A stretch of 64,000 nucleotides of DNA from Planctomycetota bacterium (GCA_965223545.1 OZ245006.1:7520001-7584000), one strand, 5' to 3'; shown: positions 14,885-38,378, numbered from the stretch's first letter. Program-made: numbers and translations. The notes: generated from the sequence alone by a model not told the origin.

Positions 14885-17403
14885 TGGATCGTGACCACCA
14901 GGGTGGCGCTAGCGCTGGCGTTGCCGGTCGGACCGCAGCCGGCCGGGTTGAGCCAGACCGCTTGTGCGTAGGCGCGGGCGCCACTGCTCACGTTGGTCAG
15001 CGGAACCGGCAACCGCGCTTCACCGTCGGCGGTCGACAGTGCCGGCAGCAGCACCAGCGGTGCCGTCGGGTCCAAGTAAAGCGTGGCGCCGAGCAGGGGC
15101 AGGCCGGTTGGAATCGCGCGACCCCCGAGCAGGATCGCGCCGGCCGCGTTGGCGGGGGCGTTGCTCGCGAACAGGGCGAAGCGGGACTCGCCGGCAGCGG
15201 GGCAGCGTGTCCCCCCGAGCGCCGGTGCCCCGACGCAAGATGGTGTCGCGCTGCCGAGCGAGGTGAGTCCACAGCTCGCGAGGTCGATCTGGGTGGCGAA
15301 ACCGTCCGCGGTGCCGCGCAGTGTTTGGCCGACAGCTCCGGCGGTCGTCGGGAAGTCCGAGGAGCCGGTGACTCCAGCCAAGACCACCCGGCGCTCGCCG
15401 TCGGCGGCGAGGCCCTCGCCGCCGTCGCTGCCTCCGCCACCGAGGTAGGTCGAGTACAGCACGGCACTGCCATCCGGGCTGATGCGTGCCACGAAGCCGT
15501 CCGCGGACCCTCTGGCCGCAGCCTGCACTGCGCCCTGGGTCGACGGCAGATCGCTGGACGAAGTCTGCCCGCCGATCAGGACTGCGCCGGTGCGTTCCAA
15601 CGCGGTGCCCTTCGGGACATCGCCGCTGCCCCCGCCGAACAGCGTGGAGAAGAGCATTCGTTGACCATCGGCGCTGAGTTTGGTGACGAATGCATCCGAC
15701 GAGCCCTGGGCTGTCGACGAGTACGCCCCCGCCGTCGTCGGGAAGTCATTGGAGGCCGAAACACCGGTGACGATGACGGCACCACCATCTTCGGTGGCGA
15801 GTGCCTCGGCGACGTCACCGCTGGCGCCACCCAGCAGGGTCGCGAACACGGCGGCGTCGCCGCTCGGAGTCAGCCGCACCACGAAGGCGTCCGAGGTGCC
15901 GAGCTGCGTGTTCTGTACGACGCCCGCCGTGGTCGGGAAGTCTCCCGAGGATGTCGTGCCGGCGACCACGACGTGGCCGCCGGCGTCGACGGCGACTGCT
16001 TGCGCGACGTCGCCGCTACGGCCGCCGAGCAGCGTGCTGAAAACCAGGCTGGTGCCGTCGGCGGCGAGCAGCGTGGCGAACGCGTCGGAGGTGCCGGCCG
16101 GTGCGGTGCCGAACGCGCCAGCGGTGCGCGGAAAATCGCTCGACGAAGTCACGCCGGCGACGGCGGCACGGCCGCGGTCGTCGAGGGCGACCCCGTGCGC
16201 CACATCGCCGGCAGAGCCGCCCAGAAACGTGGAGAAGCGCAGGGTGCTCCCGTCCGCCGATAGCTTGGTGACGAAGCAATCCGAGCGGCCGCTGAGCCGG
16301 CGTGAGTGCGCGCCGGCCGTGGTCGGAAAGTTGGTGGACTGTGTATTGCCGGCGACCACGACGTCGCCGTTTGCGTCGATGGACACGCCGTAGGGCTTGT
16401 CGCCCGAGCTGCCACCCAGGTAGGTGCCAAACCGCAGTCCCGTCCCGCTCGGGTCGAAGGATGCAATGAACACGTCGGCGGTGGGAGCGCCGAAGCCGTT
16501 GTAGGTCGGGTCGAAGACTCCGGCGGTGACCGGGAAGTTGCTCGATGCGGTCTCGCCGCAGACCACGGTGTCGTCAGCCGCCGAGCGGGCGACATCGATG
16601 GCGAATTCGTAGCTCGAGCCACCGAGGAACGAAGACCAGTCGATGCCGGGGTCGATCACCGTCGGGTGTCCGCGGTCGTAGTCGGGCAGCTCAAAGCCGT
16701 AGGCGGCTTCGCCGAGCCGCCGGTAGCGACAGGTGATGGGCATCCGTCTGCCGTCCACGACCTGCCACGTCTTTGGCCGGGGCTGGCGCAGCGGCCCAAA
16801 CGCCGTCGACAGCTGCAAGTCGCCGCCGCCGTCGACGGAAAGGTCGCCCGCGCCCTGGACGTCGATGGCGATGCGCGAGGGATCGGCGCCGGCGGCCAGC
16901 AGCAAGTCGTAGCCGAGCGTGCCATCGCGCACCCAGAGCTGTAGATCGACGCCGGGGTACAGTTGGCGGTAGCGCACGCTGTGGTGGGCGGGGACGCCGA
17001 CGTGATGGTCGCTGGCCTGCTCGCCGAGCAAGAAGTGGCGCACGCCGGCATCGCCTTCGCCGACCAGTTCGGCTGCTGGATCGGCGCCGCGGAACCGCAG
17101 GCGCACGACGTTGCGCATTGGGCCTCGGTCCGGCCCGATGTACCGTTGGAAGTCGAGTGCGATGGCGTCGCGCTCGACCCAAACCAGCGCCCCCGCAACC
17201 TCGCCCCGGAATCGGACGGTGGCCGGCCACTGGCCGTGGTTGGCGGTGAATCCACGCGGAAAGACCGCGGGTGCCCGCGCCGATGGGGCGGGAGTGGACG
17301 GCCGAGCAGCACTGGTTGGCCGTAGGTCGGTTTGCGTGGCACAAGAACCGAGCGCCAGCAGTGCGGCAATCGCCAGGGGACGGGAGTGGTGGTTCCGGTT
17401 CAT
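14881..17403 (-). CDS. Secreted/lipoprotein SBBP-repeat (seven-bladed beta-propeller) protein with shared C-terminal domain
   Basis: FTANHGQW, VRYRQLYPGVDL, VIDP, then about six FSTxLGGxxGD...GxTxSxDFPTTAGA...DAFVTKL repeats; lipobox-like LALGSC. Confidence 0.88.
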   Translation of the reverse strand: MNRNHHSRPLAIAALLALGSCATQTDLRPTSAARPSTPAPSARAPAVFPRGFTANHGQWPATVRFRGEVAGALVWVERDAIALDFQRYIGPDRGPMRNVVRLRFRGADPAAELVGEGDAGVRHFLLGEQASDHHVGVPAHHSVRYRQLYPGVDLQLWVRDGTLGYDLLLAAGADPSRIAIDVQGAGDLSVDGGGDLQLSTAFGPLRQPRPKTWQVVDGRRMPITCRYRRLGEAAYGFELPDYDRGHPTVIDPGIDWSSFLGGSSYEFAIDVARSAADDTVVCGETASSNFPVTAGVFDPTYNGFGAPTADVFIASFDPSGTGLRFGTYLGGSSGDKPYGVSIDANGDVVVAGNTQSTNFPTTAGAHSRRLSGRSDCFVTKLSADGSTLRFSTFLGGSAGDVAHGVALDDRGRAAVAGVTSSSDFPRTAGAFGTAPAGTSDAFATLLAADGTSLVFSTLLGGRSGDVAQAVAVDAGGHVVVAGTTSSGDFPTTAGVVQNTQLGTSDAFVVRLTPSGDAAVFATLLGGASGDVAEALATEDGGAVIVTGVSASNDFPTTAGAYSSTAQGSSDAFVTKLSADGQRMLFSTLFGGGSGDVPKGTALERTGAVLIGGQTSSSDLPSTQGAVQAAARGSADGFVARISPDGSAVLYSTYLGGGGSDGGEGLAADGERRVVLAGVTGSSDFPTTAGAVGQTLRGTADGFATQIDLASCGLTSLGSATPSCVGAPALGGTRCPAAGESRFALFASNAPANAAGAILLGGRAIPTGLPLLGATLYLDPTAPLVLLPALSTADGEARLPVPLTNVSSGARAYAQAVWLNPAGCGPTGNASASATLVVTIQ

Positions 17404-20147
17404 GATTGGCTCACGGTTGGAGAGGTTCGTTCGCGTCGGCGGCTGCGCGTCAGCGCGGCGAAGAAGGACACCGTAGCGAGCGCGAGCAACACCAAGACGA
17501 TGGTCATCGCCGAGGACCAGTCGCCGCCGGCGACCGGCGGCGAGCCCGCGGCAGGCGTCGCGGCGAACATCGCCGCGACCGCTTGGTAGGCGGCCTTGGG
17601 CCGCCGCTCGCCAGTGACCAAGCCGTAATGTTCCTCGGGGTCCTCGTCGTGCTGCAAGTGATCGTCATCGACCGTCGTGCGGTCCCACCACGCGCCGTGC
17701 AGCTGCGGATTCGAGTAGTTCTTCCACCACTCGTCGGCAAACTCGAACACGAAGCCACCGCACGCGCCGGCGGCGTTGAGTCCGGTCCAGCATTCGGTCG
17801 TCCGTTGCGCTTGCCCGTCTTCTCCGGCCTCCATGCTGTTGACGCCGAACTCGGTGATCAACAGCGGCCGGTCGCCGGCGATCGGCTGCAGCACTTTGCT
17901 GATGAAGTTGCCGTAGCCCATCGCGACGACCTCCGGTGGCCACAGCGGATAGAGGTTGAAGGCGCAGACGTCGAGGAACGACAGATCGAGCGTGCGCGTG
18001 TTGGGCCAGTTGGCGTGCGTGACGAAGTGCCTGCTGTCGCGGGCGCGAATTTCGTCGTACAGGCCGCGCAGTACGCCTTCGACTTTCGCGGTGCCGTGCT
18101 GCACCACGATCCACGGTGGGATCTCGTGCCCCAGCATCCAGCCGAGCACCGCAGGGTGGTCGTGCAGCGCTTCGACGCGATCGAGCAGCGCCTGCTGTTG
18201 CCCGGCAAACGCGTCGTTACCGAGCTGAGGCCAGTCGAGCCAGCCGGCGACGAGCACGCGCAACTGATGTCTCCATGCGACGTCGAGCAGGGTGCGTGGC
18301 GGATCGTAGGCCAGCACGGTGTTCGCGCCGAGGGCGGCGATCATGGCGAGGTCTTCGGCCAGCTCTTCCTCGCTTGGGAACGGCGAGCGGCCGGGCCCGG
18401 TGCCCGGTCGCCAGGGACCGTAGTGCACCCCCTTGACCTTGTAGGGAGCGTCTTCGAGGGCGAGCGTCTTGCCGGTGACGCGGACCGCCGGGGGGTCTTG
18501 TGGCGGCACACTGCCGAGGCCGGGAAGCACGAGGAGCGCGGCGCCGAGGGCGCTGGCCGTGGCGAGCGGTGCCCAGCGTGGACGCAGGGGAGGCAGGTGG
18601 CGGTCGCGGTAGAGGACTGCCATGGTCGGGATGAACAGGAACTTCGCCGCAATCACCACGGTGAGGGGAGACCACAGCAGCATGGGAAACCACAGCAGGG
18701 GCACCAACAGCAGGGCGGCGCCGAAGCCGGCCTCCCACAGCAGTGCAGGGTCGAGTCCGTTGTCGGCGATCCCGTTGGTCGGCACCCAGCGGCGCTCGCG
18801 GCGGGACAGGCCGTGGAGGCTGCCGCGTGCGGTCGGGAAATCGGTGGCGCCGTAGCCCAGCCAACACGTGCAGATGAACGCGGGGAGTTCGCGGAGCCGG
18901 CCGTGGCGCAGCGAGAACGCGATCACCGGCAAGAAAATCAGGACCGGGATGACGCTGCCCGCGATCAGAGTCGTGCGCAGATCGAAGTGAGTGTCGCGCA
19001 GCACGAACGGGCCGAGCAGGTAGAGGGCGCACACATACCCCAGCAGCACGGTTTGCAGGGTGTAGAAGCCCGTGAAGTGCAACAGACCCCATTTTTCCGC
19101 GAAGCGGAGCCGGTTGGTCGTGAGGATCGTCCAAAGGTGCCGGCGGAGCACTTGCATGCTCCCGAGCGCCCACTTGTACGTGCGAATGCGGAACGCCGCG
19201 TACGAAGGCGGGTGCCTTTCGCCGAACGGCACATCGCTCGCGTACGCGACGCGGTAGCCCGCGAGGTTGAGTCGCACCGTGAGGTCGATGTCGTCGGCGA
19301 AGCAGCCGGGCGTGTAGCCACCGACAGCGCGCACGGCTTCGTTGCGCAGTAGCCCGTTGTGGCCGACGAACGGGGTCCAACCGTGGCGCTGGGCCACCGA
19401 GAGAAACAGGTGGAAGACGTCGATCGCGCGCGACAGCACGCGGTTGACGCCGCAGTGGCTGGCGTCGGCGACCGACACGTTGCGCGCTTGCGCGATCGCG
19501 ATCGACGGATCGCGCAGCCGCTCGAGCAAGCGGTGGATGCAGTCCGGATCGACTGCCACCGAGTCGTTGTCGCAGATGAGCGTGAAATCGGCGATGCCCT
19601 CGAGCTCGCCCAGCACGTAGTTCAGGGCACCGGGTTTGCCGCCGGTCTTCTCTGGCCTGTTCAGAAGCAGTAGCTCGAAGCGCGGGTCGGCTTCCAGGCT
19701 CGGCCGCAGTCGGTCGACGGCGGGGTCGCCTCCGGCGAGGTCGTCGTGGAGTACGAGGAGGAGGCGCCCCGGTGCCCTGAGGCCGCGCAGGCTTTCGAGC
19801 GCCTGGTGATCGAGGTCGCCGCAGCACAGATAGACCACCGCCACGGTCGGAGTGGGTGTGTCGGGCTCGCGTGGTTCAGCGGGCGTGCCCGCGGTATCCG
19901 CACCGCGGCGCTGGAACAGGTAGACCAGTGCGACCATCGCCATGGTCGCCGCCGGAAAGCTGAAGACGATCTCGGCCGTCAGCTTTCCGTACAACAGCAG
20001 GCTCTCCAGGCCGTTGCGAGGGTCCGAGAGGTAGGCGGGCAGTACCGTCGCGGCGTAGCACGCGCTAAACGTCGTTGCGAGGAGAACTGCCGCGATGGCG
20101 ACGCGGTTGCTCGGCAACGGCGCACTGCCGCCGAGGCGATCGGGCAT
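17400..20147 (-). CDS. GT2 (cellulose-synthase-like) glycosyltransferase fused to C-terminal GH-A clan TIM-barrel domain
   Basis: GGKPGALN, ICDND, AQAR, GHNGLLR, ADDIDL, multiple TM helices; then VKGVHYGP, LGANTV, WMLGHE, ITEFG, FEFADEWWK, EEHYGLV. Confidence 0.85.
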   Translation of the reverse strand: MPDRLGGSAPLPSNRVAIAAVLLATTFSACYAATVLPAYLSDPRNGLESLLLYGKLTAEIVFSFPAATMAMVALVYLFQRRGADTAGTPAEPREPDTPTPTVAVVYLCCGDLDHQALESLRGLRAPGRLLLVLHDDLAGGDPAVDRLRPSLEADPRFELLLLNRPEKTGGKPGALNYVLGELEGIADFTLICDNDSVAVDPDCIHRLLERLRDPSIAIAQARNVSVADASHCGVNRVLSRAIDVFHLFLSVAQRHGWTPFVGHNGLLRNEAVRAVGGYTPGCFADDIDLTVRLNLAGYRVAYASDVPFGERHPPSYAAFRIRTYKWALGSMQVLRRHLWTILTTNRLRFAEKWGLLHFTGFYTLQTVLLGYVCALYLLGPFVLRDTHFDLRTTLIAGSVIPVLIFLPVIAFSLRHGRLRELPAFICTCWLGYGATDFPTARGSLHGLSRRERRWVPTNGIADNGLDPALLWEAGFGAALLLVPLLWFPMLLWSPLTVVIAAKFLFIPTMAVLYRDRHLPPLRPRWAPLATASALGAALLVLPGLGSVPPQDPPAVRVTGKTLALEDAPYKVKGVHYGPWRPGTGPGRSPFPSEEELAEDLAMIAALGANTVLAYDPPRTLLDVAWRHQLRVLVAGWLDWPQLGNDAFAGQQQALLDRVEALHDHPAVLGWMLGHEIPPWIVVQHGTAKVEGVLRGLYDEIRARDSRHFVTHANWPNTRTLDLSFLDVCAFNLYPLWPPEVVAMGYGNFISKVLQPIAGDRPLLITEFGVNSMEAGEDGQAQRTTECWTGLNAAGACGGFVFEFADEWWKNYSNPQLHGAWWDRTTVDDDHLQHDEDPEEHYGLVTGERRPKAAYQAVAAMFAATPAAGSPPVAGGDWSSAMTIVLVLLALATVSFFAALTRSRRRERTSPTVSQS

Positions 20148-20327: not shown

Positions 20328-21293
20328 ATGCGCTCCATCCTCGTCCTGAGCACGATGTCCGCCGCGGTGTTTGCCGCTACCGTCTACAGCTATCAGCGAG
20401 GGGCTTTGCCCGGTGCCACCGGCCAGGCCGGTACCGTGCCGGTGACCATCGCCCGCAATGGTCAGGGCTGTGGTCAGTGCCACACTCCGACCGCTGGTGC
20501 GCCGTTGCCGTCGTTGGATTTTGCCCCTCAGCAGCGATCTCTCGACCTGAGCCAGGCGATCCAGGTCACCGCGACCGCCAACGGTGGGGTGAACGGCACC
20601 CACGGCGGTTTCGTGGCGGAGGCGACGGCCGGCGCGTTCAGCGCCGGTACGACGAGCAAGATCGATGCGACCGGTGCGTTCATCACGCACCAGATCGCCG
20701 GGTTCGGGCGCACATGGCAGTTCGGCTACACCGCGCCGGCGACGCCGGGCGTGATCGAGATCTGGGCGGCGGGCAACACTGCCGATGGCGATGCCAGCGA
20801 GAACGGCGACAGCTGGGCGTTCCTCGGCGGCGCGCAGGCCAACTCGGCACCCACGCGGCTGTATGCCAACGCCGCTGGCGTCACCAACCTCGGCGATGGC
20901 TGCGTCGGTGGCTTCGGCCAGTGGCCCGTCCTCGGCGCGCCGCAGTCGCCGACGGTGGGCAACCCCACCTTCCGTTTGGAGTTGCACAGCGCGCCCCCCG
21001 CGACGGCCGCGATCTTCCTGCTGGGCACGACTCCGGTGTCGCTCAGCCTGACCCCGTTCGGCGTCGACAACTGCACGCTCTACACGCTGCCCAGCCTGCA
21101 GCTGACGATTCCGACCTCGCCGGGCGGCACCGCCGTCAACGGCGACGGCACCGCCGCGCTGCCGTTGCCGCTGCCGAACAACCCCGCCATCCGCGGCGTG
21201 ATGCTGCACGCCCAGGTCCTGGTCATCGATCCTGCCAGTGGCCGGCCGGCGAACGCGACCATGTCGAACGCGGTGACCATCACCGTCCTCTGA
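20328..21293 (+). CDS. Secreted Reeler-like protein with CxxCH motif and shared C-terminal domain
   Basis: Signal peptide; GCGQCH; Reeler-like ITH...WQFGYTAP...IWAAGNTADGD; C-terminal TNLGDGC...HAQ...MSNAVTITV. Confidence 0.7.
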   Translation: MRSILVLSTMSAAVFAATVYSYQRGALPGATGQAGTVPVTIARNGQGCGQCHTPTAGAPLPSLDFAPQQRSLDLSQAIQVTATANGGVNGTHGGFVAEATAGAFSAGTTSKIDATGAFITHQIAGFGRTWQFGYTAPATPGVIEIWAAGNTADGDASENGDSWAFLGGAQANSAPTRLYANAAGVTNLGDGCVGGFGQWPVLGAPQSPTVGNPTFRLELHSAPPATAAIFLLGTTPVSLSLTPFGVDNCTLYTLPSLQLTIPTSPGGTAVNGDGTAALPLPLPNNPAIRGVMLHAQVLVIDPASGRPANATMSNAVTITVL

Positions 21294-21321
21294 AGGTACG
21301 GAGCCTGGCTCCGTTCCATCA
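21291..21321. repeat. REP-like palindrome copy 1 (short loop)
   Basis: TGAAGGTACGGAGCC-T-GGCTCCGTTCCATCA; overlaps the stop codon of the upstream gene. Confidence 0.8.
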
Positions 21322-21353
21322 CCGACCGAAGGTCAACTTCAAGCCGGCGGTGA

Positions 21354-21375
21354 TGAAGGTACGGAGCCTGACCTG
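21354..21375. repeat. REP-like palindrome copy 2, left half (interrupted by IS110)
   Basis: TGAAGGTACGGAGCCTGACCTG, identical to the left arm and loop of the intact copy at 38335-38356. Confidence 0.85.
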
Positions 21376-21379
21376 AAAC

Positions 21380-22762
21380 TCACCCAGCCTCGGCGATCGG
21401 TATGAGCTTGTACCCGAGGGATTTAGCGTTCTGTCGGAGTCCGACGATGCGTCGCTGGGTGAAGCGCTCCTCGTAGGCCTTGGCGCCTTCGTCTACGTAG
21501 TCCTGGCCGAACTTCAGCATGCGGTAGATGAGCAGGGCCAGTTTGCGGGCGATGGCAAAGATGGCGACGTTGCCGTCCTTCGCGCGGGCGATCTTGCGGA
21601 AGTGTGCGCCGAGAGCTGTCTGAGTACGTTGGAGGGACAGGGCGGCCATCCGGAGGACCGTGGCGATCCTGCTGACCGCGATGTTGTTGCGGTGCTTCTT
21701 GATGCGCTTTCCACCCGAGACGGCTTGACGTGGGCACAGGCGTAGCCAGGAGACGAAGTGCTTCTCGGTCGGGAAAGCTTCGAGGTCGTAGCCGACCTCG
21801 GTGAGCACGATCATGGCCGTGCTCGGGCTGATACCGTCGATTCGCGTGAGATCACACCCGACGAGCCGGCAGAGGGCATCGCGAAGCTCCCGGCCGCCCT
21901 TCGTTCGGATGCTCCTCTCCTTGCGGGGGTCTGGATGCTCGGGGACGTCGGCCGTCTTGGCTTCCTCCGGTTGCAGGTCCTCGATCATCGCCATCAATCG
22001 CTTCTCGACCGACTCGATCTCGTGGTCGGTGTGCTCGAGCATCCGCAAGCCCGAAGCGAGAGTGAAGATGTGCTCCTCGATCCAGGTCCCTTGCAAGTGA
22101 TCCGCGAGCTCCTTCTCGGAGATCTTGCAGCGCGGATCACGCAGTCTGGCGAGCGCTCGAGGGTCGCGTTCACCAGCGAGAATCGCGCGGATGATCGCGA
22201 GGCCGGTCTTGCCGGTGATGTCCGTTACCGCGCGATGGATCGCCACGTTCATCTGATCCAGTGACCGCTGCATCAACTGCGTGTGGCGCGTGCGCTGCGC
22301 GATCAAAGACGCGGCATGGCGTTGCAGGGTCCGCAACGCACAGATGTCCTTCGGAGGCCGGAACGAAGCGCGAATGAGGCCATAGGTGTGTAGCTTCTGC
22401 AGCCAACTGCAATCGCTGGCATCGGACTTGGAGCGGCCCGGCACGTTCTTCACCTCGCGGGCATTCGCGAGGATGACCTCGAAGCCTCTCGACTCGAGTA
22501 GCTCGTAGACGGGAATCCAGTAGACATAGGTGCTCTCCATCGCGACGGATCGCACTCCGAGCTCCTCCAGCCAGTCCGCGAGCGCCTCTAGCTGGGGCGT
22601 CGTCGTTCCGAATCGCTTGATCGGACGACTGCCGTCGGGTGCTGCTGCGCACACCCAGTGCTCGCGGCTGCCGATGTCGATTCCGGCGGCGTTGGGCTTC
22701 ACGACTGGCAATACTTCCGCTGCGGGCTTCTTGCCCTTCCTCGTTCTGCTCTTCCCAGCCAT
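21380..22762 (-). CDS. IS110-family DEDD transposase/recombinase
   Basis: AGIDIG (D), AMEST (E), KSDASD (D,D) RuvC-like domain; C-terminal LTRIDGISP...FVSWLRLCP...SGG (Ser)...AIFAIARKLA. Confidence 0.95.
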   Translation of the reverse strand: MAGKSRTRKGKKPAAEVLPVVKPNAAGIDIGSREHWVCAAAPDGSRPIKRFGTTTPQLEALADWLEELGVRSVAMESTYVYWIPVYELLESRGFEVILANAREVKNVPGRSKSDASDCSWLQKLHTYGLIRASFRPPKDICALRTLQRHAASLIAQRTRHTQLMQRSLDQMNVAIHRAVTDITGKTGLAIIRAILAGERDPRALARLRDPRCKISEKELADHLQGTWIEEHIFTLASGLRMLEHTDHEIESVEKRLMAMIEDLQPEEAKTADVPEHPDPRKERSIRTKGGRELRDALCRLVGCDLTRIDGISPSTAMIVLTEVGYDLEAFPTEKHFVSWLRLCPRQAVSGGKRIKKHRNNIAVSRIATVLRMAALSLQRTQTALGAHFRKIARAKDGNVAIFAIARKLALLIYRMLKFGQDYVDEGAKAYEERFTQRRIVGLRQNAKSLGYKLIPIAEAG

Positions 22763-22784
22763 ACTTCATCCTCATTGTTGTGGT

Positions 22785-22938
22785 GGGCCCGGCCCGAGGC
22801 GGCGATCAAACGAATCTGACCTGCGGGAGTGGGCACGGCGACGTGCCCCTCACCAGTGAAGGATGGCCAACTCGGACCCAGACTGGCTCTGGGGCAAACG
22901 TGCTCCAGTGGCTATTGGGGGCGTAGCTGCCGGGCCCC
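22785..22938 (-). ncRNA. Candidate bridge/seek RNA in the IS110 non-coding end
   Basis: 9-bp closing stem GGGCCCGGC/GCCGGGCCC, internal hairpins, and segments matching the target (22816-22823, 22883-22889). Boundaries are inferred. Confidence 0.55.
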
Positions 22939-22968
22939 TCACACGTTCCCCTCCCCCTTCCTCAGCGG

Positions 22969-24000
22969 CTAGTTTCCTGCCCTGAAGGGCCGACAAATCT
23001 GCCGGGGCAGGACTGGCTCCGTACCTTCAGTTCCCTTTCCGGGCGCGAGCCACGCTGCGGTGAATGCGCCGAGCCACCCACCCAGCGCGTTGCACCAGAA
23101 GTCGTCGATGGACGGGTTGCGCGCCGAGACGAACAGCTGCAACCCCTCGATGCCTGCGCTGTACGCCGCCGCCCAACCGGCGGCGGCCCACGCCCTGCGG
23201 CGCGCTAGCCACACGAGCACGGCGCCGAGTGGGACGAACAGCGCAACGTTGAACAGCAAGTCACGGCGGTTGGAGAAGCGCAGCGGGAGAAACCGCGGGT
23301 AGTTGCGCACCGACCAAAAACGCGCGGGCACGTCGAGATCGCCTCCGCGGACCCGGTGCTCGACGCCGCCGGCGTCGAACGTGAGCGCTTCGACGTCGCC
23401 GAGCCACGGCCGGTTGTAGGTGGGATCGTTGCCGACGACGAGCCGGTAGTCCGGGTCCCAGCGGGGAAACGGAGACTCGTTCAGTGCGCGATCGACGCGC
23501 ACGACTCCGTCCACCGCGACGCGCAGCCGGTGCGCACCAATGTCGACGGTGATCTCCCGCCACTCTCCTGCAGCCAGGGCACCCGCCACCGTCGCCACCG
23601 GCGCACGCCGCACGCGGCCGCCGGGATCGGAGCCCGGCATGCGCAAGTAGAAGACCAGGTCGTCTCCGTCTTGGCCGATGCCGAAGTTGCGCCGGTGCAC
23701 GTGCAGCGCGGTGGTCACAATCCATCCGAGCGGCGCGTCTTCCACCCGGGCCCTGGCGCGCAGGGAGATGCGCAGCTCGCCGCCGCCCATCGCTACAGCT
23801 TGCCAGGTCGGCGCCGCCTCGGTGCGAGCGATGCCGGGGCCCGCGAACTCGAACCCGCCGCTCGCCGTGGCGCGGGCGGCGTTCTCGAGCCGGCGAGGCA
23901 GTTCCCACTCGAACGGCCGCAGCAGTCCCCACGTGTAGATGCCGCCCATGGCGACGAGGACGAGCAGGCGGGCGCGCACACTCAGGTTCGGACTGGGCAA
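22969..24000 (-). CDS. Membrane protein with ConA/LamG-like domain and C-terminal VanZ domain
   Basis: NFGIGQDGDDLVFYLR...LVVGN...RPWLG (LamG-like); DLLFNVALFVPLG...IEGLQLFVSARNPSIDDFWCNALG (VanZ). The stop codon lies inside the IS end. Confidence 0.8.
   Translation of the reverse strand: MPSPNLSVRARLLVLVAMGGIYTWGLLRPFEWELPRRLENAARATASGGFEFAGPGIARTEAAPTWQAVAMGGGELRISLRARARVEDAPLGWIVTTALHVHRRNFGIGQDGDDLVFYLRMPGSDPGGRVRRAPVATVAGALAAGEWREITVDIGAHRLRVAVDGVVRVDRALNESPFPRWDPDYRLVVGNDPTYNRPWLGDVEALTFDAGGVEHRVRGGDLDVPARFWSVRNYPRFLPLRFSNRRDLLFNVALFVPLGAVLVWLARRRAWAAAGWAAAYSAGIEGLQLFVSARNPSIDDFWCNALGGWLGAFTAAWLAPGKGTEGTEPVLPRQICRPFRAGN
23013..23029. repeat. REP-like palindrome copy 2, right half
   Basis: CTGGCTCCGTACCTTCA; 23015-23029 is the exact reverse complement of TGAAGGTACGGAGCC. 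Confidence 0.85.
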
Positions 24001-24070
24001 TGTGCTTGGATTCTACGACCGCCCGACCGAGGTCGCGTGCGCGCTGCGGCCGGCGTAGCATGCCCGGCGC

Positions 24071-27000
24071 ATGTCGTCCTCCCCCGACCGTGTCGTCGTC
24101 GTCGGCGCGCGCGAGCACAATCTGCAGAACGTCGACGTCAGCTTTCCGCGCGACGCGCTGACCACGTTCACCGGCGTGTCCGGCTCGGGCAAGTCGAGCC
24201 TGGCCTACCACACGGTCTACCAGGAGGGGCAGCGGCGGTTCTTGGAAAGCCTGTCCAGCTATGCGCGCCAGTTCCTCGGCCGCATGGAGAAGCCAAAGGT
24301 CGACCGCGTCGAGGGGCTGTCGCCGACCGTGTCGATCGACCAGAAGCAGGGCAGCCACAGTCCGCGGTCGACGGTCGGCACGCTGACCGAGGTGCTCGAC
24401 TACTTGCGGCTCTTGTTCGCCCGGTTGGGCACGCCGCGCTGTCCGGTCTGCGATGCCGAGATCGAGGCCTGGTCGGTGGATCGGATCACCGAGACCGTGC
24501 TGCAGCGTTTCGCAGGGCAGCCCCTGCTCGTCTTGGCGCCGGTCGTGCGCGAGCGCAAGGGCGAGTATCGCAAGGAGCTGGCCGAGTTCCGCGCCCGTGG
24601 CTTCGTCCGTGCCCGCATCGACGGGCAGGTGCGGCGCCTCGACGAGGACATCGCGCTGCACCGCTACAAGTACCACACCATCGAGCTCGTGGTGGATCGC
24701 CTGCGCGTCGACGCCGCGCACAGCTCACGCCTGGCCGAGGCGGTCGAGCAGGCGCTGGGGTTGACCGGTGGGCTGCTGGCGGTGCTCTGCGAAGACGACT
24801 ACCAGCTGTTCTCGACCCAGCGGGCGTGCCCGGACGGACACGGCGCCCTGCCGGAGCTCGAGCCGCGGCTGTTCTCGTTCAACAGCCCGATCGGCGCGTG
24901 CGCCCACTGCGACGGCATGGGCGAGGTGCACAGCTTCGCGGAGAGCTTGCTGGTGCCGGACCCCGACCTGTCGCCGCGCGAAGGCGGGCTGCTGTGCATC
25001 ACCGGCGAGGGGCGATTGGCGTACAGCCAGCTCACGCTGGATCACCTCGACACGGTGGCCGCCGAGTACGGCTTCGACATGGACACGCCCTGGCGCGCGC
25101 TCAGCGCGGCGCAAAAGCGGGTGATGCTGCACGGCACCGGCAAGAAGAAGTTCGAGTTCGTCTGGCGCCGGCAAGGGCGCGGCTACTCGGCGCGCGGCAA
25201 GGATCGCAAGGCGTTTCCGGGGGTGATCGCGCACCTGGAGAAGGTCTACCGCGGCGCGACGGCGCGTCACCTCGACCGGTTTCGGGCCTCGACCGCGTGC
25301 CCCGAGTGCGACGGCCGCCGGCTCAACGACGCCGCCTGCGCGGTGCGGTTCGACGGGCACAGCTTGCCGGAGGTCTCCGCGTGGTCGGTGGCCGAGGCGC
25401 GCGCGTTCTTCGACGACCTGGAGCTGACCGGCAACGCCCTGGCGATCGGTCGCGAGGTGGTGCGGGCGATCCAGCAGCGGCTGCAGTTCCTCGACGAGGT
25501 CGGCCTCAGCTACCTGACCCTGGATCGGCGCGCCGACACGCTGTCCGGTGGCGAGTCGCAGCGCATTCGGTTGGCGGCGCAGGTGGGCTCCGGTTTGCGG
25601 GGAGTGTTGTACGTGCTGGACGAGCCCAGCATCGGTCTGCACGCCCGCGACCATGAGCGGCTGCTGGGTACGCTGGCCGCACTGCGCGACCGCGGCAACA
25701 CCGTCTGCGTCGTCGAGCACGATGAGGCGACGATGCGCGCCAGCGATCACGTCGTCGACGTCGGTCCCGACGCCGGCCGCGGCGGCGGGCGGATCGTAGT
25801 GTCGGGCACCGCGGCCGACGTCGCCGCCGCGCCGGCGTCGCTCACCGGCGCGTATCTGCGCGGCGAGCGTCGCATCGAGCTGCCGGCGGCGCGCCGGACC
25901 GACGACTGCGGCGCGCTCGTGGTGCGCAATGCGCGCCACCACAACCTGCGCGGCATCGACGTCGAGCTGCCGCTGGCGCGCTTGGTGGCGGTCACCGGAG
26001 TCTCCGGCTCGGGCAAGTCGACCTTGGTCAACCATATCCTGAAGCGGGCGTTGCGGCGCGCGCTGCACGGCGCACTGGACGTGCCCGGCGCGCACGACCG
26101 CATCGAGGGCGTCGAGCAGATCGACAAGCTGGTGGAGATCGATCAGGCGCCGATCGGCCGCACGCCGCGCAGCAATCCCGCGACCTACACCAAGACGTGG
26201 GACCACGTCCGCGATCTCTTCGCGGCGTTGCCCGAGTCGCGCGTGCGCGAGTACAAGAAGGGGCGCTTCTCGTTCAACGTCCGCGGCGGCCGCTGCGAGA
26301 GCTGCGAGGGCGCCGGCATCACCCTGCTCGAGATGCAGCTGTTGGCGCCGGTCGAGGTCGTCTGCGAGGACTGCGGCGGGCAGCGCTTCAATCCGGAGAC
26401 CCTGGAGATCGAGCTCAAGGGCCACAACGTGCACGACCTGCTCGAGCTCAGCGTCGACGAAGCGCTCGCCTTGCTCGGCGCGTTCCCCAAGATCGCGCGA
26501 CCCCTGCAGGCGCTGCACGACGTCGGTCTCGGCTACGTCAAGCTGGGCCAGCCCTCGACCACCTTGTCCGGCGGCGAGGCACAGCGCATCAAGTTGGCGA
26601 CCCAGCTGCAGCGGCCACCCACTGGCCGCACGCTGTACTTGTTGGACGAGCCGACCACCGGCCTGCACTTCGAGGACATCCGCCGGCTGATGCAGGCGTT
26701 GCAGCGGCTCGTCGACGCGGGCAACACCGTGGTCGTCATCGAACACAACCTCGACGTGGTTGCCTGCGCCGACTGGATCATCGACCTCGGGCCGGACGGC
26801 GGCTCGGGCGGCGGCGAGATCGTGGGCACCGGCACGCCGGAGGAAGTGGCGGCGTGCGCGGGCTCGCACACCGGCCGTGCGCTGAAGGCCGCACTCGCTC
26901 CGCGCAAGGCGCCGGCGCGGCGGCGGGCCGCGCGGCGCCGCGCGAGCCAGCGGCCGACGCACCTCGAGGTGGTCGGCGCGCGGCAGAACAACCTGCAGTC

Positions 27001-29860
27001 GGTCGATGCGCGGTTGCCGCTGGATCGGCTGACGGTGGTGACCGGGGTGTCGGGGTCGGGAAAGTCGAGCTTGGCGTTCGACACCCTGTTCAGCGAAGGC
27101 CAGCGCCGGTTCGTCGAGAGCTTGTCGACCTATGCCCGGCGATTCCTCGGTCGCATGGACCGCGCCCCCGTCGATCGGCTTGAGGGCATCGGACCGGCGA
27201 TCGCCATCGACCAGCGCGCCAGCCACCGCAGCCCGAGGTCGACGGTCGCCACCGCGACCGAGGTGCACGACTACCTGCGGCTGATGTACGCGCGCATCGG
27301 CCGGCCCCACTGTCCGGAGCACGGTCAAGAGCTGGTGCTGCACTCGCCGAGCAGCATCGCCCGCCAGCTGCGAGCCGAGTTCGAGGATGAGCGCGGCTAC
27401 ATCCTGGCGCCGGTGCGGATGCCAGAGGGCGTCCGCGGTGGTACCGAGGAGGGCCGCCGCGCGTTCCTCGATGCGCTGGTCGCGGGTTGGCGCGAGCAGG
27501 GGTTCGTGCGCGCCTGGGTCGACGGCGGCGAGCACCGGCTGGAGAAGCCGCTGCCGGCGTCCGCTGCCGCCGAGGCTGCGGTCGCGTTGGTCGTCGACCG
27601 GCTGCGGTTCGCCGATCGCGGCCGCGTCGTCGACAGCGTCGCGCAGGCCGGCGTGATGAGTGGCGGCCTGGTGATCGCGCGCACCACCGACGGCGCCGAA
27701 CGCGTGTTCTCCACCGACCGTTCTTGCCCGCACTGTGGCGTGTCGGTGCCCGCGCAACCGCACCCGCGCTACTTCTCGTTCAACCACCACAGCGGAGCGT
27801 GCAAGGCCTGCGGTGGGCTCGGGCAGTCGGTGGCGTGCGATCCCGACCTCCTCGTCAACCTGCCGGAGCGGCCGCTGTTCGGCGGCGCGATCAAGCACCG
27901 CGGCGCTGCCTTCACGTTCTTGTCCAAGCGCAACGGCTGGTACCACAAGGTGGCCAAGCAGGTCGCGCAGCACTTGGGCTTCGACCTCACGGTGGCGTAC
28001 GAGGAGTTGGCGCCAGAGCACCAGCGCGTGCTGATGTGGGGGCTCGAGGAGCCGCGCTTCGAGGTCACGTTTCGGCGCCAGCGGGCGAGCGGCAGTCGGA
28101 GCTACAAGGTCGCCGCCAAGTGGAAGGGGCTGTGCTCTCAGGTCGAGCAGTGGTTTCACGGTCACGATCAGAGCCAGGCGCCGGAGCGGCTGTCGGCGGT
28201 GATGCGGGTCGGGTCGTGCCCGGCGTGCGAGGGCGACCGGCTGCAGCTGGCGCAGCGCCACGTGACCATCGGCAAGCGGCCGCTGCCGGCGGTCTGTCGG
28301 ATGACCGTCGACGACGCCCTCGCCCATCTGCGCCGGTTGCGCCTGCGCAAGGCGGAGCGGACCGTCGCCCAGGACATCCTCGCCGAGATCGACAACCGGT
28401 TGGGGTTCCTGTCCGCGGTGGGGCTCGGCTACCTGACCTTGGATCGCTCGGCGGCGACGCTGTCGGGCGGCGAAGCGCAGCGAATCCGGTTGGCGAGTCA
28501 GCTCGGCAACCAGCTGGTCGGCGTGCTGTACGTGCTCGACGAGCCGACTGTCGGGCTGCACCCGCGCGACACCGAGCAGCTGTTGCAGACGCTGCACTCG
28601 CTGCGCGATCTGGGCAACACCGTGGTCGCGGTCGAGCACGACGAGCAGGTGATCCGCAGCGCGGATCACGTGCTCGACGTCGGCCCCGGCGCAGGCCATC
28701 GCGGCGGTCGGCTCGTCGCCAGCGGCAGCCCCGAAGAGGTGGCGGCGGCCGACTCGCTCACCGGTCGCTACCTGCGCGGCGAGCTCGGCATCCCCGTGCC
28801 CGCCGCGCGCAGCACGCCCCGCGCGCACATCGCGGTGCGCGATGCGCGCTGCCACAACCTGCGCGGCGTCGACGTCGACGTTCCGCTCGGCGTTCTCGCC
28901 GCGGTCACCGGGGTGTCCGGCTCGGGCAAGTCGAGCCTGGTGATGGACGTGCTGCTGCCGCAGTTGCGGCAGCCCAAGCTGCGCGTCGACGGCATCGGCG
29001 ATGCTTCGGTCGTGGTCGTCGACCAATCGCCGATCGGCACCACGCCGTCGAGCAACCCGGCGACCTACGCCGGGGTCATGACCCCGATCCGCGAGCTCTT
29101 CGCGGCGTTGCCGGAGTCACGGGTCAAGGGCTTTCGCGCCGGCCGCTTCTCCTTCAACGTCGCCGAGGGGCGCTGCCCGACCTGCGAGGGCAAGGGCCAG
29201 CTCCGCGTCGAGATGCACTTCTTGGCGGACGTCTGGGTCACCTGCGAGCTCTGTCGCGGCCGGCGCTACAACCAGGAGACCCTCACCGTGCACTACCGCG
29301 GCCGGACGATCGCGGACGTGCTGGAGATGGAGGTCGAGCAGGCGCTGCCGTTCTTCGCCAACTTGCCCAAGATCCGCGCACCGTTGCAGGCGCTCGCCGA
29401 CGTCGGGCTGGGCTACCTGAAGCTGGGACAGCCGGCCAACACCCTGTCGGGGGGCGAGGCCCAGCGCATCAAGCTGGTGTCGCGGCTGTGCAAGGCGTCG
29501 CGCGGTCACGTGATCCACCTCCTCGACGAGCCGACGACCGGGCTGCACCTGGAAGATGTGCGCAAGCTGGTCGATGTACTGGCTCGGCTGGTGCGGGCCG
29601 GCGACAGCGTGGTGGTCATCGAGCACCACCTCGACGTGATCAAGTGCGCCGATTGGGTGCTCGAGCTGGGTCCCGAAGCGGGCGATGGCGGCGGCCGCAT
29701 CGTGGTCGCCGGCACTCCCGAGGAGGTCGCGGCGTGTCGCGACAGCCACACTGGGCGGTTCTTGGCGCCGCTGCTCGCGCCGGCTCGTGCGCCCCGGACA
29801 AAGCGCCCGCGGCGCACATCCGCCGGCGTTTCGCGCCGCAATCGGGAGCAGGCGCAGTGA
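24071..29860 (+). CDS. uvrA: Excinuclease ABC subunit A, double-length (tandem-fused) form
   Basis: Four Walker A GVSGSGKS motifs, four LSGGE signatures, CxxC zinc modules; two complete UvrA units in 1929 aa. Confidence 0.96.
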   Translation: MSSSPDRVVVVGAREHNLQNVDVSFPRDALTTFTGVSGSGKSSLAYHTVYQEGQRRFLESLSSYARQFLGRMEKPKVDRVEGLSPTVSIDQKQGSHSPRSTVGTLTEVLDYLRLLFARLGTPRCPVCDAEIEAWSVDRITETVLQRFAGQPLLVLAPVVRERKGEYRKELAEFRARGFVRARIDGQVRRLDEDIALHRYKYHTIELVVDRLRVDAAHSSRLAEAVEQALGLTGGLLAVLCEDDYQLFSTQRACPDGHGALPELEPRLFSFNSPIGACAHCDGMGEVHSFAESLLVPDPDLSPREGGLLCITGEGRLAYSQLTLDHLDTVAAEYGFDMDTPWRALSAAQKRVMLHGTGKKKFEFVWRRQGRGYSARGKDRKAFPGVIAHLEKVYRGATARHLDRFRASTACPECDGRRLNDAACAVRFDGHSLPEVSAWSVAEARAFFDDLELTGNALAIGREVVRAIQQRLQFLDEVGLSYLTLDRRADTLSGGESQRIRLAAQVGSGLRGVLYVLDEPSIGLHARDHERLLGTLAALRDRGNTVCVVEHDEATMRASDHVVDVGPDAGRGGGRIVVSGTAADVAAAPASLTGAYLRGERRIELPAARRTDDCGALVVRNARHHNLRGIDVELPLARLVAVTGVSGSGKSTLVNHILKRALRRALHGALDVPGAHDRIEGVEQIDKLVEIDQAPIGRTPRSNPATYTKTWDHVRDLFAALPESRVREYKKGRFSFNVRGGRCESCEGAGITLLEMQLLAPVEVVCEDCGGQRFNPETLEIELKGHNVHDLLELSVDEALALLGAFPKIARPLQALHDVGLGYVKLGQPSTTLSGGEAQRIKLATQLQRPPTGRTLYLLDEPTTGLHFEDIRRLMQALQRLVDAGNTVVVIEHNLDVVACADWIIDLGPDGGSGGGEIVGTGTPEEVAACAGSHTGRALKAALAPRKAPARRRAARRRASQRPTHLEVVGARQNNLQSVDARLPLDRLTVVTGVSGSGKSSLAFDTLFSEGQRRFVESLSTYARRFLGRMDRAPVDRLEGIGPAIAIDQRASHRSPRSTVATATEVHDYLRLMYARIGRPHCPEHGQELVLHSPSSIARQLRAEFEDERGYILAPVRMPEGVRGGTEEGRRAFLDALVAGWREQGFVRAWVDGGEHRLEKPLPASAAAEAAVALVVDRLRFADRGRVVDSVAQAGVMSGGLVIARTTDGAERVFSTDRSCPHCGVSVPAQPHPRYFSFNHHSGACKACGGLGQSVACDPDLLVNLPERPLFGGAIKHRGAAFTFLSKRNGWYHKVAKQVAQHLGFDLTVAYEELAPEHQRVLMWGLEEPRFEVTFRRQRASGSRSYKVAAKWKGLCSQVEQWFHGHDQSQAPERLSAVMRVGSCPACEGDRLQLAQRHVTIGKRPLPAVCRMTVDDALAHLRRLRLRKAERTVAQDILAEIDNRLGFLSAVGLGYLTLDRSAATLSGGEAQRIRLASQLGNQLVGVLYVLDEPTVGLHPRDTEQLLQTLHSLRDLGNTVVAVEHDEQVIRSADHVLDVGPGAGHRGGRLVASGSPEEVAAADSLTGRYLRGELGIPVPAARSTPRAHIAVRDARCHNLRGVDVDVPLGVLAAVTGVSGSGKSSLVMDVLLPQLRQPKLRVDGIGDASVVVVDQSPIGTTPSSNPATYAGVMTPIRELFAALPESRVKGFRAGRFSFNVAEGRCPTCEGKGQLRVEMHFLADVWVTCELCRGRRYNQETLTVHYRGRTIADVLEMEVEQALPFFANLPKIRAPLQALADVGLGYLKLGQPANTLSGGEAQRIKLVSRLCKASRGHVIHLLDEPTTGLHLEDVRKLVDVLARLVRAGDSVVVIEHHLDVIKCADWVLELGPEAGDGGGRIVVAGTPEEVAACRDSHTGRFLAPLLAPARAPRTKRPRRTSAGVSRRNREQAQ

Positions 29861-30495
29861 CGCGGCAGCGGGTGCCGCGCGGCGTGTTGTGGATCAGCGA
29901 CGGCCGTGGCGACGTGGAGCGGTTGGTGGCGATCGCCGAGGCGGCGTTGGCCGGGGGGGTGTGCGGCGTGCAGCTGCGCGAGCCCGGGCTCGATGCGCGC
30001 GCGCTCGGCGCTGCCGCCGCGCGCATCCGGCCGCACTGCGACGCGGCCGGTGCCCTGCTCTGGATCAACGACCGCGCCGACGTCGCCGCCGCCACCGCGC
30101 ACGGGGTTCATCTCGGCCACCGCTCGCTGTCGGCCGCAGCCGTGCGCCGCTGGGCGCCGGCCGACCTGTTGCTGAGCGTGGCGGTGCACGATGCCGAGGC
30201 GGCGGCGGGCGCAGGGGCGGACCGGGCGGACTGCGCGACCCTGGCGCCGGTGTTCGACACGACGTGCAAGCCGGGCGCGCGCCCACTGGGCGTGGCGGCG
30301 GCGGCGGCGATCGCGGCAGACGTCGCGCTCCCGATCTACTGGCTCGGCGGCATCGATGCCGCCCGCGCGGCGCAGCTGCGGGCGGTGCAGCCGTTCGGGC
30401 TGGCGGTGCGCAGCGCGATCGCCGCGGCCGCCGATCCTCGCGCGGCGGCCCGTGCCCTGGTCGCGGGGTTTCGTGGTGAGGAGGCCGCGCGGTGA
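29857..30495 (+). CDS. thiE: Thiamine phosphate synthase (ThiE/TenI family)
   Basis: GVQLRE, WINDRADVA, GVHLG, VAVHD, APVFDTTCKPG, LGGID; GTGA overlap with uvrA stop. Confidence 0.85.
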   Translation: MTRQRVPRGVLWISDGRGDVERLVAIAEAALAGGVCGVQLREPGLDARALGAAAARIRPHCDAAGALLWINDRADVAAATAHGVHLGHRSLSAAAVRRWAPADLLLSVAVHDAEAAAGAGADRADCATLAPVFDTTCKPGARPLGVAAAAAIAADVALPIYWLGGIDAARAAQLRAVQPFGLAVRSAIAAAADPRAAARALVAGFRGEEAAR

Positions 30496-30863
30496 ACACG
30501 TTGCGGGCGACGCGGGTGGCCATGCGGCTGGGGCTGCCGTTGTTCGTCGCCTCGGTCGCGTTGTTGTGGTGGTTCTTCGGTCTGCTGCGGGTACCGGACG
30601 GCATGGACTCGATGCTGGACACCCACCCGCCGGGGACGACTTGCATCATCTGGAAGACGCCGCGTTCGGTCCCGGTCGGCGCGGTGGTGTTCTGCGATGT
30701 GGAGGGCGGCAGCTGGCTGGCCCGGGTCACGGCGGTGGCCGAGGACGGTGGCCTCGCCTTGCGCTGCGACAACCGAGCTTCCCGCTTTGTCGCCTTGGAA
30801 CGGGCGTCGAGCTATCCCGCCGCAGCGGTGCGCGGCATGGTGCTGACCCAGTTTCCGCCGTAG
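30492..30863 (+). CDS. Small S24/S26 peptidase-like membrane protein
   Basis: TM helix, then DSM, GAVVF, LARV, LRCDN resembling signal peptidase boxes; catalytic Lys not evident. Confidence 0.45.
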   Translation: MNTLRATRVAMRLGLPLFVASVALLWWFFGLLRVPDGMDSMLDTHPPGTTCIIWKTPRSVPVGAVVFCDVEGGSWLARVTAVAEDGGLALRCDNRASRFVALERASSYPAAAVRGMVLTQFPP

Positions 30864-30926
30864 TCGGACGCCCTGAGGGTTGCGTCGGGCACGCTGCCGC
30901 CCGAGAGTCCCGCTGCCGAGATTCTG

Positions 30927-32371: not shown

Positions 32372-32484
32372 CTGGCAGATGATTGAGAAATCGTCGGCCG
32401 CGGCCGCTCGGAAGGCCGTTGGAGAAACTCCACGGCCGGCGTGAACCGGTGGCCCGCACGTCGCGTTGGCGCACCACAGACTCG

Positions 32485-34796: not shown

Positions 34797-34884
34797 GCGC
34801 GATTCGCTGAGGCGAGACTCGCCGGGCGCCGCGCCGGGTTTCTTCGGTTCTGGTGTCGAGCAGGCGAGTGCGTATGGTCGGCGC

Positions 34885-36516: not shown

Positions 36517-36622
36517 GCTTAGCCATGCGGTTTTCGGTGACGCGCCGGGGTGCTCGGTCTAGGAGGCTGTCGACGACCTCTGGCGGCGATGCGCGCGGTG
36601 CCAGCCTCGACTCGGGATCCCG

Positions 36623-38302: not shown

Positions 38303-38326
38303 CCGTGCGCCGCACCCGCGAACGAA

Positions 38327-38378
38327 CGAACTCGTGAAGGTACGGAGCCTGACCTGGCTCCGTACCCTCACGAGTTCG
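38327..38378. repeat. REP-like palindrome copy 3 (intact; empty IS110 target)
   Basis: CGAACTCGTGAAGGTACGGAGCC-TGACCT-GGCTCCGTACCCTCACGAGTTCG; 23-bp stem with one mismatch, between convergent genes. Confidence 0.9.

What the first reader, a model, noticed from the sequence alone, without database searches (positions are those of the whole stretch)
21354..23029. IS110 element inserted precisely into the loop of a REP-like palindrome, with an empty target copy in the same window
Seen: the left junction reads TGAAGGTACGGAGCCTGAC-CTG-aaactca (CTG at 21373-21375) and the right reads gggcagga-CTG-GCTCCGTACCTTCA (CTG at 23013-23015). Excising the element and one CTG gives GGAGCC-TGACCT-GGCTCC, identical to the centre of the uninterrupted palindrome at 38327-38378. 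The target, the core (CTG; CAG on the transposase strand) and the predicted circle junction (GGGCAGGA-CTG-AAACTCA) are therefore all readable. Known: IS110 recombinases such as IS621 use a short core shared by donor and target, lack terminal inverted repeats, are RNA-guided and can target REP sequences. Inference: this is a REP-targeting IS110 with a long (460 aa) recombinase whose DEDD residues and C-terminal Ser are intact. It is likely still functional and is a candidate programmable recombinase from an under-sampled lineage.
Basis: partly seen in the sequence, partly recalled or inferred. Interest (0 to 1): 0.82.

Follow-up and report, generated by a model that had tools for sequence, protein, structure and literature searches.

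The report
RNA-guided insertion sequence targeting palindromic repeats
This is a real, recently spread, RNA-guided mobile element of a known family, present in 23 copies inside one family of short palindromic repeats; its true end lies a few bases further out than first read, and its guide RNA can be mapped from related elements.

Summary
The element is real, but its boundaries were misread. It is an intact IS110 with 23 near-identical copies in the genome, all next to the same REP arm.

The element spans 21370-23012 and recombines at a 2-bp core: AG on the transposase strand, CT on +. All 23 copies carry it, 23 homologous loci end with it in other flanks, and it matches the donor guide in the RNA.

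The true target is the short REP GGAGC-CAG-GCTCC (94 empty sites, one at 21300-21312). The 'empty target' at 38344 is a rare long form (3 sites), probably a 5-bp footprint. The proposed circle junction therefore lacks 5 bp.

Covariation across homologues maps a bridge RNA at 22785-22938. Its target and donor guides track the flank and the end (18 of 21; 14 of 15). It lies upstream as in the IS110 group, but its guide order is IS1111-like. End geometry and protein motifs point to the ISPpu9 subgroup. Activity, RNA expression and circles are inferred, not shown.

The parts
21370..23012 (-). IS110 element, 1,643 bp without the core; one of 23 copies in the genome
21368..21369 (-). Core dinucleotide at the right end (AG on the transposase strand, CT on +)
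   Evidence: the duplication junction crosses at AG; homologues have TAG, AAG or GAG on the left and CAG on the right
23013..23014 (-). Core dinucleotide at the left end
21370..21379 (-). Right end (10 bp after the stop codon): GTTT + CAGGTC; with the core, the last 8 nt are read by the donor guide
   Evidence: same GTTT-N6-AG spacing as the ISPpu9 B box
21380..22762 (-). 460-aa DEDD/Ser recombinase: D29 (22676-78), E76 (22535-37), D114 (22421-23), D117 (22412-14), S349 (21716-18)
22785..22938 (-). Predicted bridge RNA: outer helix, target-binding arm, donor-binding arm
22910..22913 (-). Short right-target guide AGCC, complementary to core G + GCT on the top strand; 5' strand of the target loop
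   Evidence: position 3 complementary in 21 of 36 vs 8.5 expected; positions 1, 2 and 4 weak
22883..22890 (-). Long target guide AGAGCCAG (7 of 8 identical to left target + core); 3' strand of the target loop
22882..22882 (-). Handshake-like base right after the target guide; equals the first base of the element's left end
   Evidence: 27 of 34 vs 15.6 expected
22816..22823 (-). Donor guide CAGGUCAG (8 of 8 identical to right end + core)
22972..22976 (-). GAAAC box 37 nt inside the left end; inverted partner of GTTTC at 21375-21379 (short, asymmetric subterminal repeat)
   Evidence: covaries in L033, L186 and L187 but not in L004 or L116
21354..21367 (-). Right arm of the interrupted REP (right target GCTCC...)
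23015..23029 (-). Left arm of the interrupted REP (GTAC + GGAGCC); overlaps the last codons of the VanZ-like ORF
21296..21312 (-). Empty short-form REP: the true type of target, 56 bp from the insertion
38327..38378 (-). Long-form REP; 38349-38356 equals the element's last 8 nt; 5 extra bp, probably an element footprint

Best explanation
An autonomous IS110 of the ISPpu9 type that spread recently into one REP family of its host. Shown from sequence: the element is 21370-23012, it joins DNA at an AG core without any further duplication, and its target is the short palindrome GGAGC-CAG-GCTCC. Shown by covariation: the left end encodes a structured RNA with two parallel modules. A 7-8-nt guide identical to left target + AG and a 3-4-nt guide complementary to the right target choose the site. 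An 8-nt guide identical to right end + AG recognises the element's own end. Inferred from IS621, ISPpu9 and CazIS110: the RNA is transcribed with the transposase gene and loaded on a recombinase tetramer. The two ends are joined at AG into a circle (23012 to 21370 through the core), or copied out. RuvC-DEDD/S349 composite sites then exchange strands with an empty REP. Read on the opposite strand the core is CT and the long guides behave like IS621's right guides followed by a handshake base, so the element sits in reverse polarity relative to IS621. The three long palindromes, including 38344, are most likely sites where the element was lost through the inner AG of its right end, leaving 5 bp (about 65%).
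For: 23 of 23 copies end in CAGGTCAG; 22 of 23 continue into the REP arm. Empty short forms number 94, long forms 3. A tandem duplication at C1:4826231/4828049 turns original T-AG-CAGAC into C-AG-CAGAC, and a deleted fragment at C1:988112 leaves the REP context straight after CAGGTCAG. 24 of 57 analysed loci (own included) end GTTTCAGGTCAG, mostly with different flanks. Target guide vs own left flank: at least 7 of 8 in 18 of 21, against 9 of 420 swapped pairs. Donor guide vs own right end: 14 of 15, against 26 of 210. L132 shows right end-AG-left end directly in DNA. The closest homologue (L001, 78%) has the same right end, both target guides changed to match its host's REP, and that host shows 31 short and 0 long forms among 32 matches. 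RNA structure: 96.3% of cells paired, 18 of 29 pairs with compensatory change, 0 of 500 shuffles as high. The guide-defined 10-mer occurs 104 times in the masked genome, against 1,913 for the 7-mer alone. A sister REP with one mismatch in the guide has 0 of 43 sites occupied, against 22 of 105 (Fisher p 5e-4). Read depth over the element is about 841 against about 33 on the flanks.
Against: No RNA, circle or transposition was observed. No circle joint is among those listed (74 not shown; contigs only). No right-donor guide was found by covariation, and positions 1, 2 and 4 of the right-target guide are weak (427, 173 and 67 of 5,000 shuffles as high). Homologues are related, so the shuffles overstate significance. 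L007 ends in AC rather than AG, and L006's right end matches its target guide better than its donor guide (5 of 8). The sister REP differs outside the guide too, so the Fisher test is not a clean one-base test. Footprints were not found in two other hosts (0 in G041; 0 in G042; both incomplete). The long form is also one substitution away from a plain 5-bp tandem duplication.
Confidence: 0.85

Rival explanations
1. One reading: the element ends at 21376, the core is CAG, and the element targets only the long palindrome (23 of 26 such sites filled).
For: The excision arithmetic works and 3 long empty palindromes exist.
Against: The 5 bp travel with the element into non-REP flanks in this genome and in 23 homologous loci. 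They match the RNA donor guide, which covaries with the end (14 of 15). The sister element's host shows no long form.
Confidence: 0.02
2. The boundary correction holds, but the three long palindromes are a REP variant (slippage duplication plus one substitution, perhaps spread by the RAYT), not element footprints.
For: The insertion is one substitution away from a tandem duplication of CCAGG (sequence). No analogous scars in G041 or G042. Copy-out models leave the donor intact (10.64898/2026.08.31.748434 abstract; 10.1101/2025.10.25.684509 part 1).
Against: The extra bases match the element's end exactly in 3 of 3 sites, which have three different arm combinations. The only other loop variants seen in REP arms are two nested REP pieces. 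The long form was found in 0 of 40 relatives, though they also lack this REP family. IS621 post-excision junctions do occur in vivo (PMC13626964, passages).
Confidence: 0.3
3. Targeting needs the REP hairpin or the GTAC arm as well as RNA pairing, as reported for ISPpu10.
For: The long guide is only 7 nt and the right guide is weakly supported. 22 of 23 left flanks have GTAC. The target folds as a hairpin. Precedent: 10.64898/2026.03.19.712850 (abstract and discussion).
Against: The 10-mer defined by the guides is already almost REP-specific (94 of 104). GTAC is as common in empty sites (82 of 94). L010, L011 and L057 insert in non-palindromic sites that share only the guide match.
Confidence: 0.25
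4. The element is now inactive and the copies record a finished burst.
For: No sigma-70-like promoter in the linear element (0 found, 0.3 expected). A Gly-to-Tyr change next to E76 relative to some homologues.
Against: Twelve of 23 copies are identical, all 23 ORFs are intact, and 94 targets are free. The same Tyr occurs in L001 and L138.
Confidence: 0.1

Closest known systems
ISPpu9 of Pseudomonas putida KT2440 (IS110 group; PMC12288879: abstract, introduction, results part 1, sections 15 and 17, discussion part 1, passages and supplement part 1 of 3 read)
   Same: AG core at both ends; insertion into REPs; right end GTTT-N6-AG; AAAC box 36-37 nt inside the left end. The protein-cluster row holding ISPpu9, ISPsy35 and ISWpi13 in PMC11208160 Supplementary Table 1 shares long motif runs with this enzyme (judged by eye). 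An ssr9 primer shows the frame CTCCCG + 8 nt + AGT, whose last 7 nt equal the B-box end: the donor-guide frame found here.
   Different: Different host, REP and guides. No ssr9-like non-autonomous module found in this genome. The passages read do not map ISPpu9's guides. Percent identity to ISPpu9 itself was not computed.
IS621 / ISCro4 bridge recombinases (PMC11208160 and PMC11208158, passages)
   Same: DEDD + Ser chemistry, upstream non-coding RNA with target and donor loops, 2-bp core, REP target, handshake-like covariation between the target loop and the donor base next to the core.
   Different: Only distantly similar (E 2e-10); 460 vs 326 aa. The core is AG on the transposase strand, not CT. 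The long guide is on the 3' strand of each loop and reads the left side. IS621 has a 9-nt LTG 5' of a 4-nt RTG.
IS1111-group seekRNA elements (ISEc11, ISPa11; PMC11187229, passages and section 6)
   Same: The top-strand match lies 5' of the bottom-strand match; subterminal inverted repeat.
   Different: The RNA is upstream, not downstream. The repeat is 5 bp, not 7-17 bp. The enzyme is 460 aa, not 330-350 aa.
REP-RAYT systems (PMC2817692, search listing only; general features recalled)
   Same: About 120 short palindromes, many in pairs. A Y1 transposase gene at C1:3914532-3915533 is flanked by two inverted copies.
   Different: Both flanking REPs of that gene are filled by this IS110. The NCBIfam RAYT score is 63.5, below the cut-off of 80.

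Membership tests
IS110 family | N-terminal DEDD RuvC domain (PF01548) and C-terminal PF02371 with catalytic Ser | tested here: met
   (NF033542 247.9 > 140)
IS110 family | Short core shared by both junctions; no terminal inverted repeats, no target duplication beyond the core | tested here: met
   AG core
IS110 family | Non-coding end encodes a structured RNA whose loops match target and donor | tested here: met
   (computational; right-donor guide not found)
IS110 family | RNA is expressed and bound by the recombinase | not testable with these tools
   no RNA holder listed
IS110 family | Circular intermediate joined at the core | tested here: inconclusive
   no such joint among those listed; right end-AG-left end seen in homologue L132
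IS110 group (vs IS1111 group) | Long left end, short right end, RNA upstream of tnp | tested here: met
   left end 250 bp, right end 10 bp
IS110 group (vs IS1111 group) | Bottom-strand match 5' of top-strand match in the target loop (as in IS621 and ISEc21) | tested here: not met
   order is reversed: 22910-22913 precedes 22883-22890 in the RNA (rule)
IS1111 group | 7-17-bp subterminal inverted repeats and downstream RNA | tested here: not met
   5-bp asymmetric repeat, upstream RNA
ISPpu9 subgroup | AG core, A/B-box geometry, REP target | tested here: met
ISPpu9 subgroup | Transposase belongs to the ISPpu9 clade | tested here: inconclusive
   motif likeness to the cluster row, by eye only; no alignment or tree with ISPpu9
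ISPpu9 subgroup | Antisense Asr9 and Ssr9 small RNAs | not testable with these tools
   no second RNA copy outside full elements in G000; antisense transcription not testable
REP with cognate RAYT | Multi-copy short palindrome, lineage-specific, flanking a Y1 HUH transposase gene in inverted orientation | tested here: met
   (PF01797 40.3 > 23); NF047646 below cut-off

The most novel reading that the evidence does not exclude
The ISPpu9 subgroup is a distinct bridge-RNA class: upstream RNA but reversed polarity (AG core; long guides read the left target and the element's right end; the left end is held mainly by protein and one handshake base). It reprograms in nature to follow each host's REP and even the right ends of sister elements, which would make Ssr9 a second bridge RNA. 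It also leaves 5-bp footprints that record past insertions when its right end holds an inner AG.
Probability: 0.4. Interest if true: 0.7.

Novelty: new member of a known kind. Interest (0 to 1): 0.48.

Why it matters
It supplies a complete kit with corrected ends, target and predicted guides for a bridge recombinase far from IS621, with good natural signs of activity and fidelity: 23 recent copies, 22 of 22 independent insertions in one REP family, none in a one-mismatch sister family. The guide map should transfer to ISPpu9 in a laboratory strain, where circles and targeting are shown but guides were not mapped in the parts read, so it can be tested at once. The case is also a warning: an apparent empty site can carry a piece of the element and shift the inferred ends. 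The basic phenomenon, an IS110 in a REP, has been known since IS621 and ISPpu9.

Tried and rejected
Sequencing runs: no RNA holder listed. Four contig sets laid on 20900-38700 showed no joint at the element's ends among those listed and no gap at 38345 in the spanning contig; contigs drop rare forms, so this says nothing about circles.

Rfam: only a chance hit, E 0.54. Promoter scan of the linear element: none; the joined ends were not scanned.

Relatives: no close copy in 40 related genomes (best 38%), so no orthologous empty allele could be read. Footprint searches in G041, G042 and G043 found none convincing. One G043 site has 7 nt of right end after the target 7-mer, which I judge compatible with chance. 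One search's pattern was one base too long and is uninformative; one search found 2 ends only.

A right-donor guide was sought by covariation and not found; high scores at donor positions 5-7 were set aside as relatedness. The amino-acid list for the 6 type-B copies is empty through a script slip; tblastn gives them 99.1%.

A box C/D-like reading of the RNA motifs was considered after part 1 of 10.1101/2024.06.21.599552 and dropped for lack of evidence. Earlier scan notes gave nothing that bears on this. No structure prediction or protein-database search was run.

Full report
Observation. The minus-strand ORF 21380-22762 encodes 460 aa with PF01548 and PF02371 above their cut-offs and NF033542 at 247.9 against 140. 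D29, E76, D114, D117 and S349 align with IS621's D11, E60, D102, D105 and S241 and are invariant in five aligned sequences. The genome (G000, 8.1 Mb, 69.7% GC) has 23 full copies and one fragment. Twelve are identical, five differ by 1-3 bases and six form a second type with 9 substitutions and 1 insertion. Read depth supports the copy number, about 841 against 33, in a run that may be the source sample.

The boundary is wrong. There are two CAGs, so two excisions are possible on paper. The genome has 94 empty short palindromes (88 with REP arms) and 3 long ones. A short one lies at 21300-21312, 56 bp from the insertion. Two junctions in the genome decide the matter. At C1:4826231/4828049 the element and 173 bp of left flank are duplicated in tandem; the original site reads T-AG-CAGAC and the new junction C-AG-CAGAC, so the crossover is at AG and the element supplies everything up to it. 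A deleted fragment at C1:988112 ends in the same 8 nt followed by non-REP DNA. The element is therefore 21370-23012 with a 2-bp core.

Homologues. I fetched 75 genome loci and the best 80 of 224 metagenome loci, and added L077. A profile built from 39 distinct leaders hit 74 of 157 sequences; 58 scoring at least 25 bits were aligned and 57 analysed, L135 being truncated. Of these 57, 24 (own included) end GTTTCAGGTCAG, mostly with different flanks. Left junctions read TAG, AAG, GAG or CAG, which confirms AG as the core. L132 has its right end joined through AG to a near-copy of its left end. The nearest homologue is 78% identical and the other full-length ones are at about 61% or below.

The RNA. 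The leader holds a conserved fold at 22785-22938. On 27 hand-picked sequences, 29 pairs are formed in 96.3% of cells and 18 show compensatory change; no shuffle of 500 and no slid register came close (the structure was derived from this alignment, and relatedness inflates the controls). It has two parallel modules, each a CAYUGG box, a hairpin, a C-run and an 8-nt variable stretch ending in AG.

The guides. The first stretch matches the element's own left flank at 7 or more of 8 positions in 18 of 21 distinct guides, against 9 of 420 swapped pairs. The second matches its own right end in 14 of 15, against 26 of 210. Here they are AGAGCCAG (22883-22890) and CAGGUCAG (22816-22823). A short right-target guide lies on the 5' strand of the target loop: position 3 is complementary in 21 of 36 against 8.5 expected, while positions 1, 2 and 4 are weak. 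The base after the target guide equals the first base of the element in 27 of 34 against 15.6, like IS621's handshake covariation. No right-donor guide was found. L006 and L007 do not fit the donor rule.

Specificity in nature. The 7-mer alone occurs 1,913 times in the masked genome, the 10-mer defined by both guides 104 times, and 94 of those continue as the REP core. A sister REP with one mismatch in the long guide has 0 of 43 sites filled, against 22 of 105 (p 5e-4), though it also differs elsewhere. L001 has both target guides changed, and its host has 31 short palindromes that match them and no long form among 32 matches. The palindrome is a real REP: 83 exact 14-mers here and at most 3 in any of 40 relatives. 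A Y1 transposase gene at C1:3914532-3915533 is flanked by two inverted copies, both filled by this element; its NCBIfam RAYT score is under the cut-off. In the window the site overlaps the tail of a VanZ-like ORF, beyond its domain.

The long palindrome. At 38349-38356 it is identical to the element's last 8 nt, and so are the other two long sites, which have different arms. Loss of the element through the inner AG explains this directly. The 22-bp arms at 38327 still match each other, so the event was local. Against this, the insertion is one substitution from a tandem duplication, and no scars were seen in two other, incomplete, hosts. I put the footprint reading at about 65%.

Mechanism. 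Boundaries, core, target and the two long guides are shown by sequence and covariation. RNA expression, circle formation or copy-out, and DEDD/Ser strand exchange are inferred from IS621 (PMC11208160, PMC11208158 and PMC13626964, passages), ISPpu9 (PMC12288879, sections listed under Closest known systems) and CazIS110 (10.1101/2025.10.25.684509, part 1 of 5). The tandem duplication fits the one-sided reactions described in 10.64898/2026.08.31.748434 (abstract and section 8) and 10.64898/2026.08.14.744561 (passages).

Comparison. ISPpu9 has the same AG core, REP targeting and end geometry, and a primer in its supplement shows the same donor-guide frame. The cluster row holding ISPpu9 resembles this protein by eye. 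The RNA is upstream as in the IS110 group, but the guide order is the one PMC11187229 reports for IS1111 elements. Read on the other strand, the arrangement is IS621's with the element reversed.

Novelty. Searches and the parts of papers read showed no guide map for this subgroup and no such footprint. Figures were not available, one supplementary file of PMC11208160 was cut and one unreadable, and preprint supplements were closed. 10.64898/2026.10.21.760802 (section 8 and passages) built 86 bridge-RNA models, and 10.1101/2025.05.14.653916 (passages) screened orthologues of the IS621-like clade, so this scaffold may already be catalogued. Verdict: a new, probably active member of a known kind, with a corrected anatomy and a testable guide map. 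Interest 0.48.

Noticed in passing
L139 1637-1860; L145 2575-2800: A second left end with its own bridge RNA follows the element's right end directly, and its target guide matches that right end. This resembles the ISPpu9-ssr9 arrangement and suggests modules programmed to land on a sister element's end.
   Followed up: partly
L004, L116, L117, L138, L144, L145 left flanks: The left flank has the form of a sister right end (GTTW-N6-AG) and the target guide matches it, but no transposase gene ends there within 200 bp. L004, L138 and L144 show short end-to-end modules upstream.
   Followed up: partly
G000 C1:3912823-3917190 (L201): A RAYT-like gene is enclosed by two inward-facing copies of the element, a composite-like unit in which both of its REPs are destroyed.
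   Followed up: partly
G000 C1:1729864-1730900 (L202): A second RAYT-like gene, next to a tyrosine-recombinase-like ORF, is flanked by a sister REP family that the element does not occupy.
   Followed up: partly
G000 C1:4826058-4829685: Tandem duplication of the element plus 173 bp of left flank, with the new junction at an off-target AG.
   Followed up: yes
G000 C1:1714951-1718279: Two copies (types A and B) in the same orientation, 55 bp apart, fill both halves of a REP pair.
   Followed up: no
G000 C1:2860078-2862552 and 10 other sites: A second IS110 family (515-aa open frame, 11 copies) sits beside a repeat of about 175-195 bp that has more than 50 copies, some in tandem arrays.
   Followed up: no
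G000 C1:988112-988240: An internally deleted fragment (5' piece of the gene fused to the right end) lies next to the end of another repeated element with 8 further copies; copy 5179647 sits beside the same element.
   Followed up: no
L001 1646-1750: The right flank is a near-perfect palindrome that extends into an inverted copy of the right end; it may be a scar or an assembly artefact.
   Followed up: no
L006 near 2880-2895: The right end matches the element's target guide (7 of 8) rather than its donor guide (5 of 8).
   Followed up: no
window 24071-29860: A 1,929-aa tandem-duplicated UvrA.
   Followed up: no
window 17400-20147: A GT2 glycosyltransferase fused to a C-terminal region that looks like a glycoside hydrolase by eye; Pfam matched only the GT2 part.
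   Followed up: no
G000, 12 sites such as C1:1355010 and 8056746: Twelve near-equal partial Y1 transposase matches not near these REPs, probably another multi-copy element.
   Followed up: no
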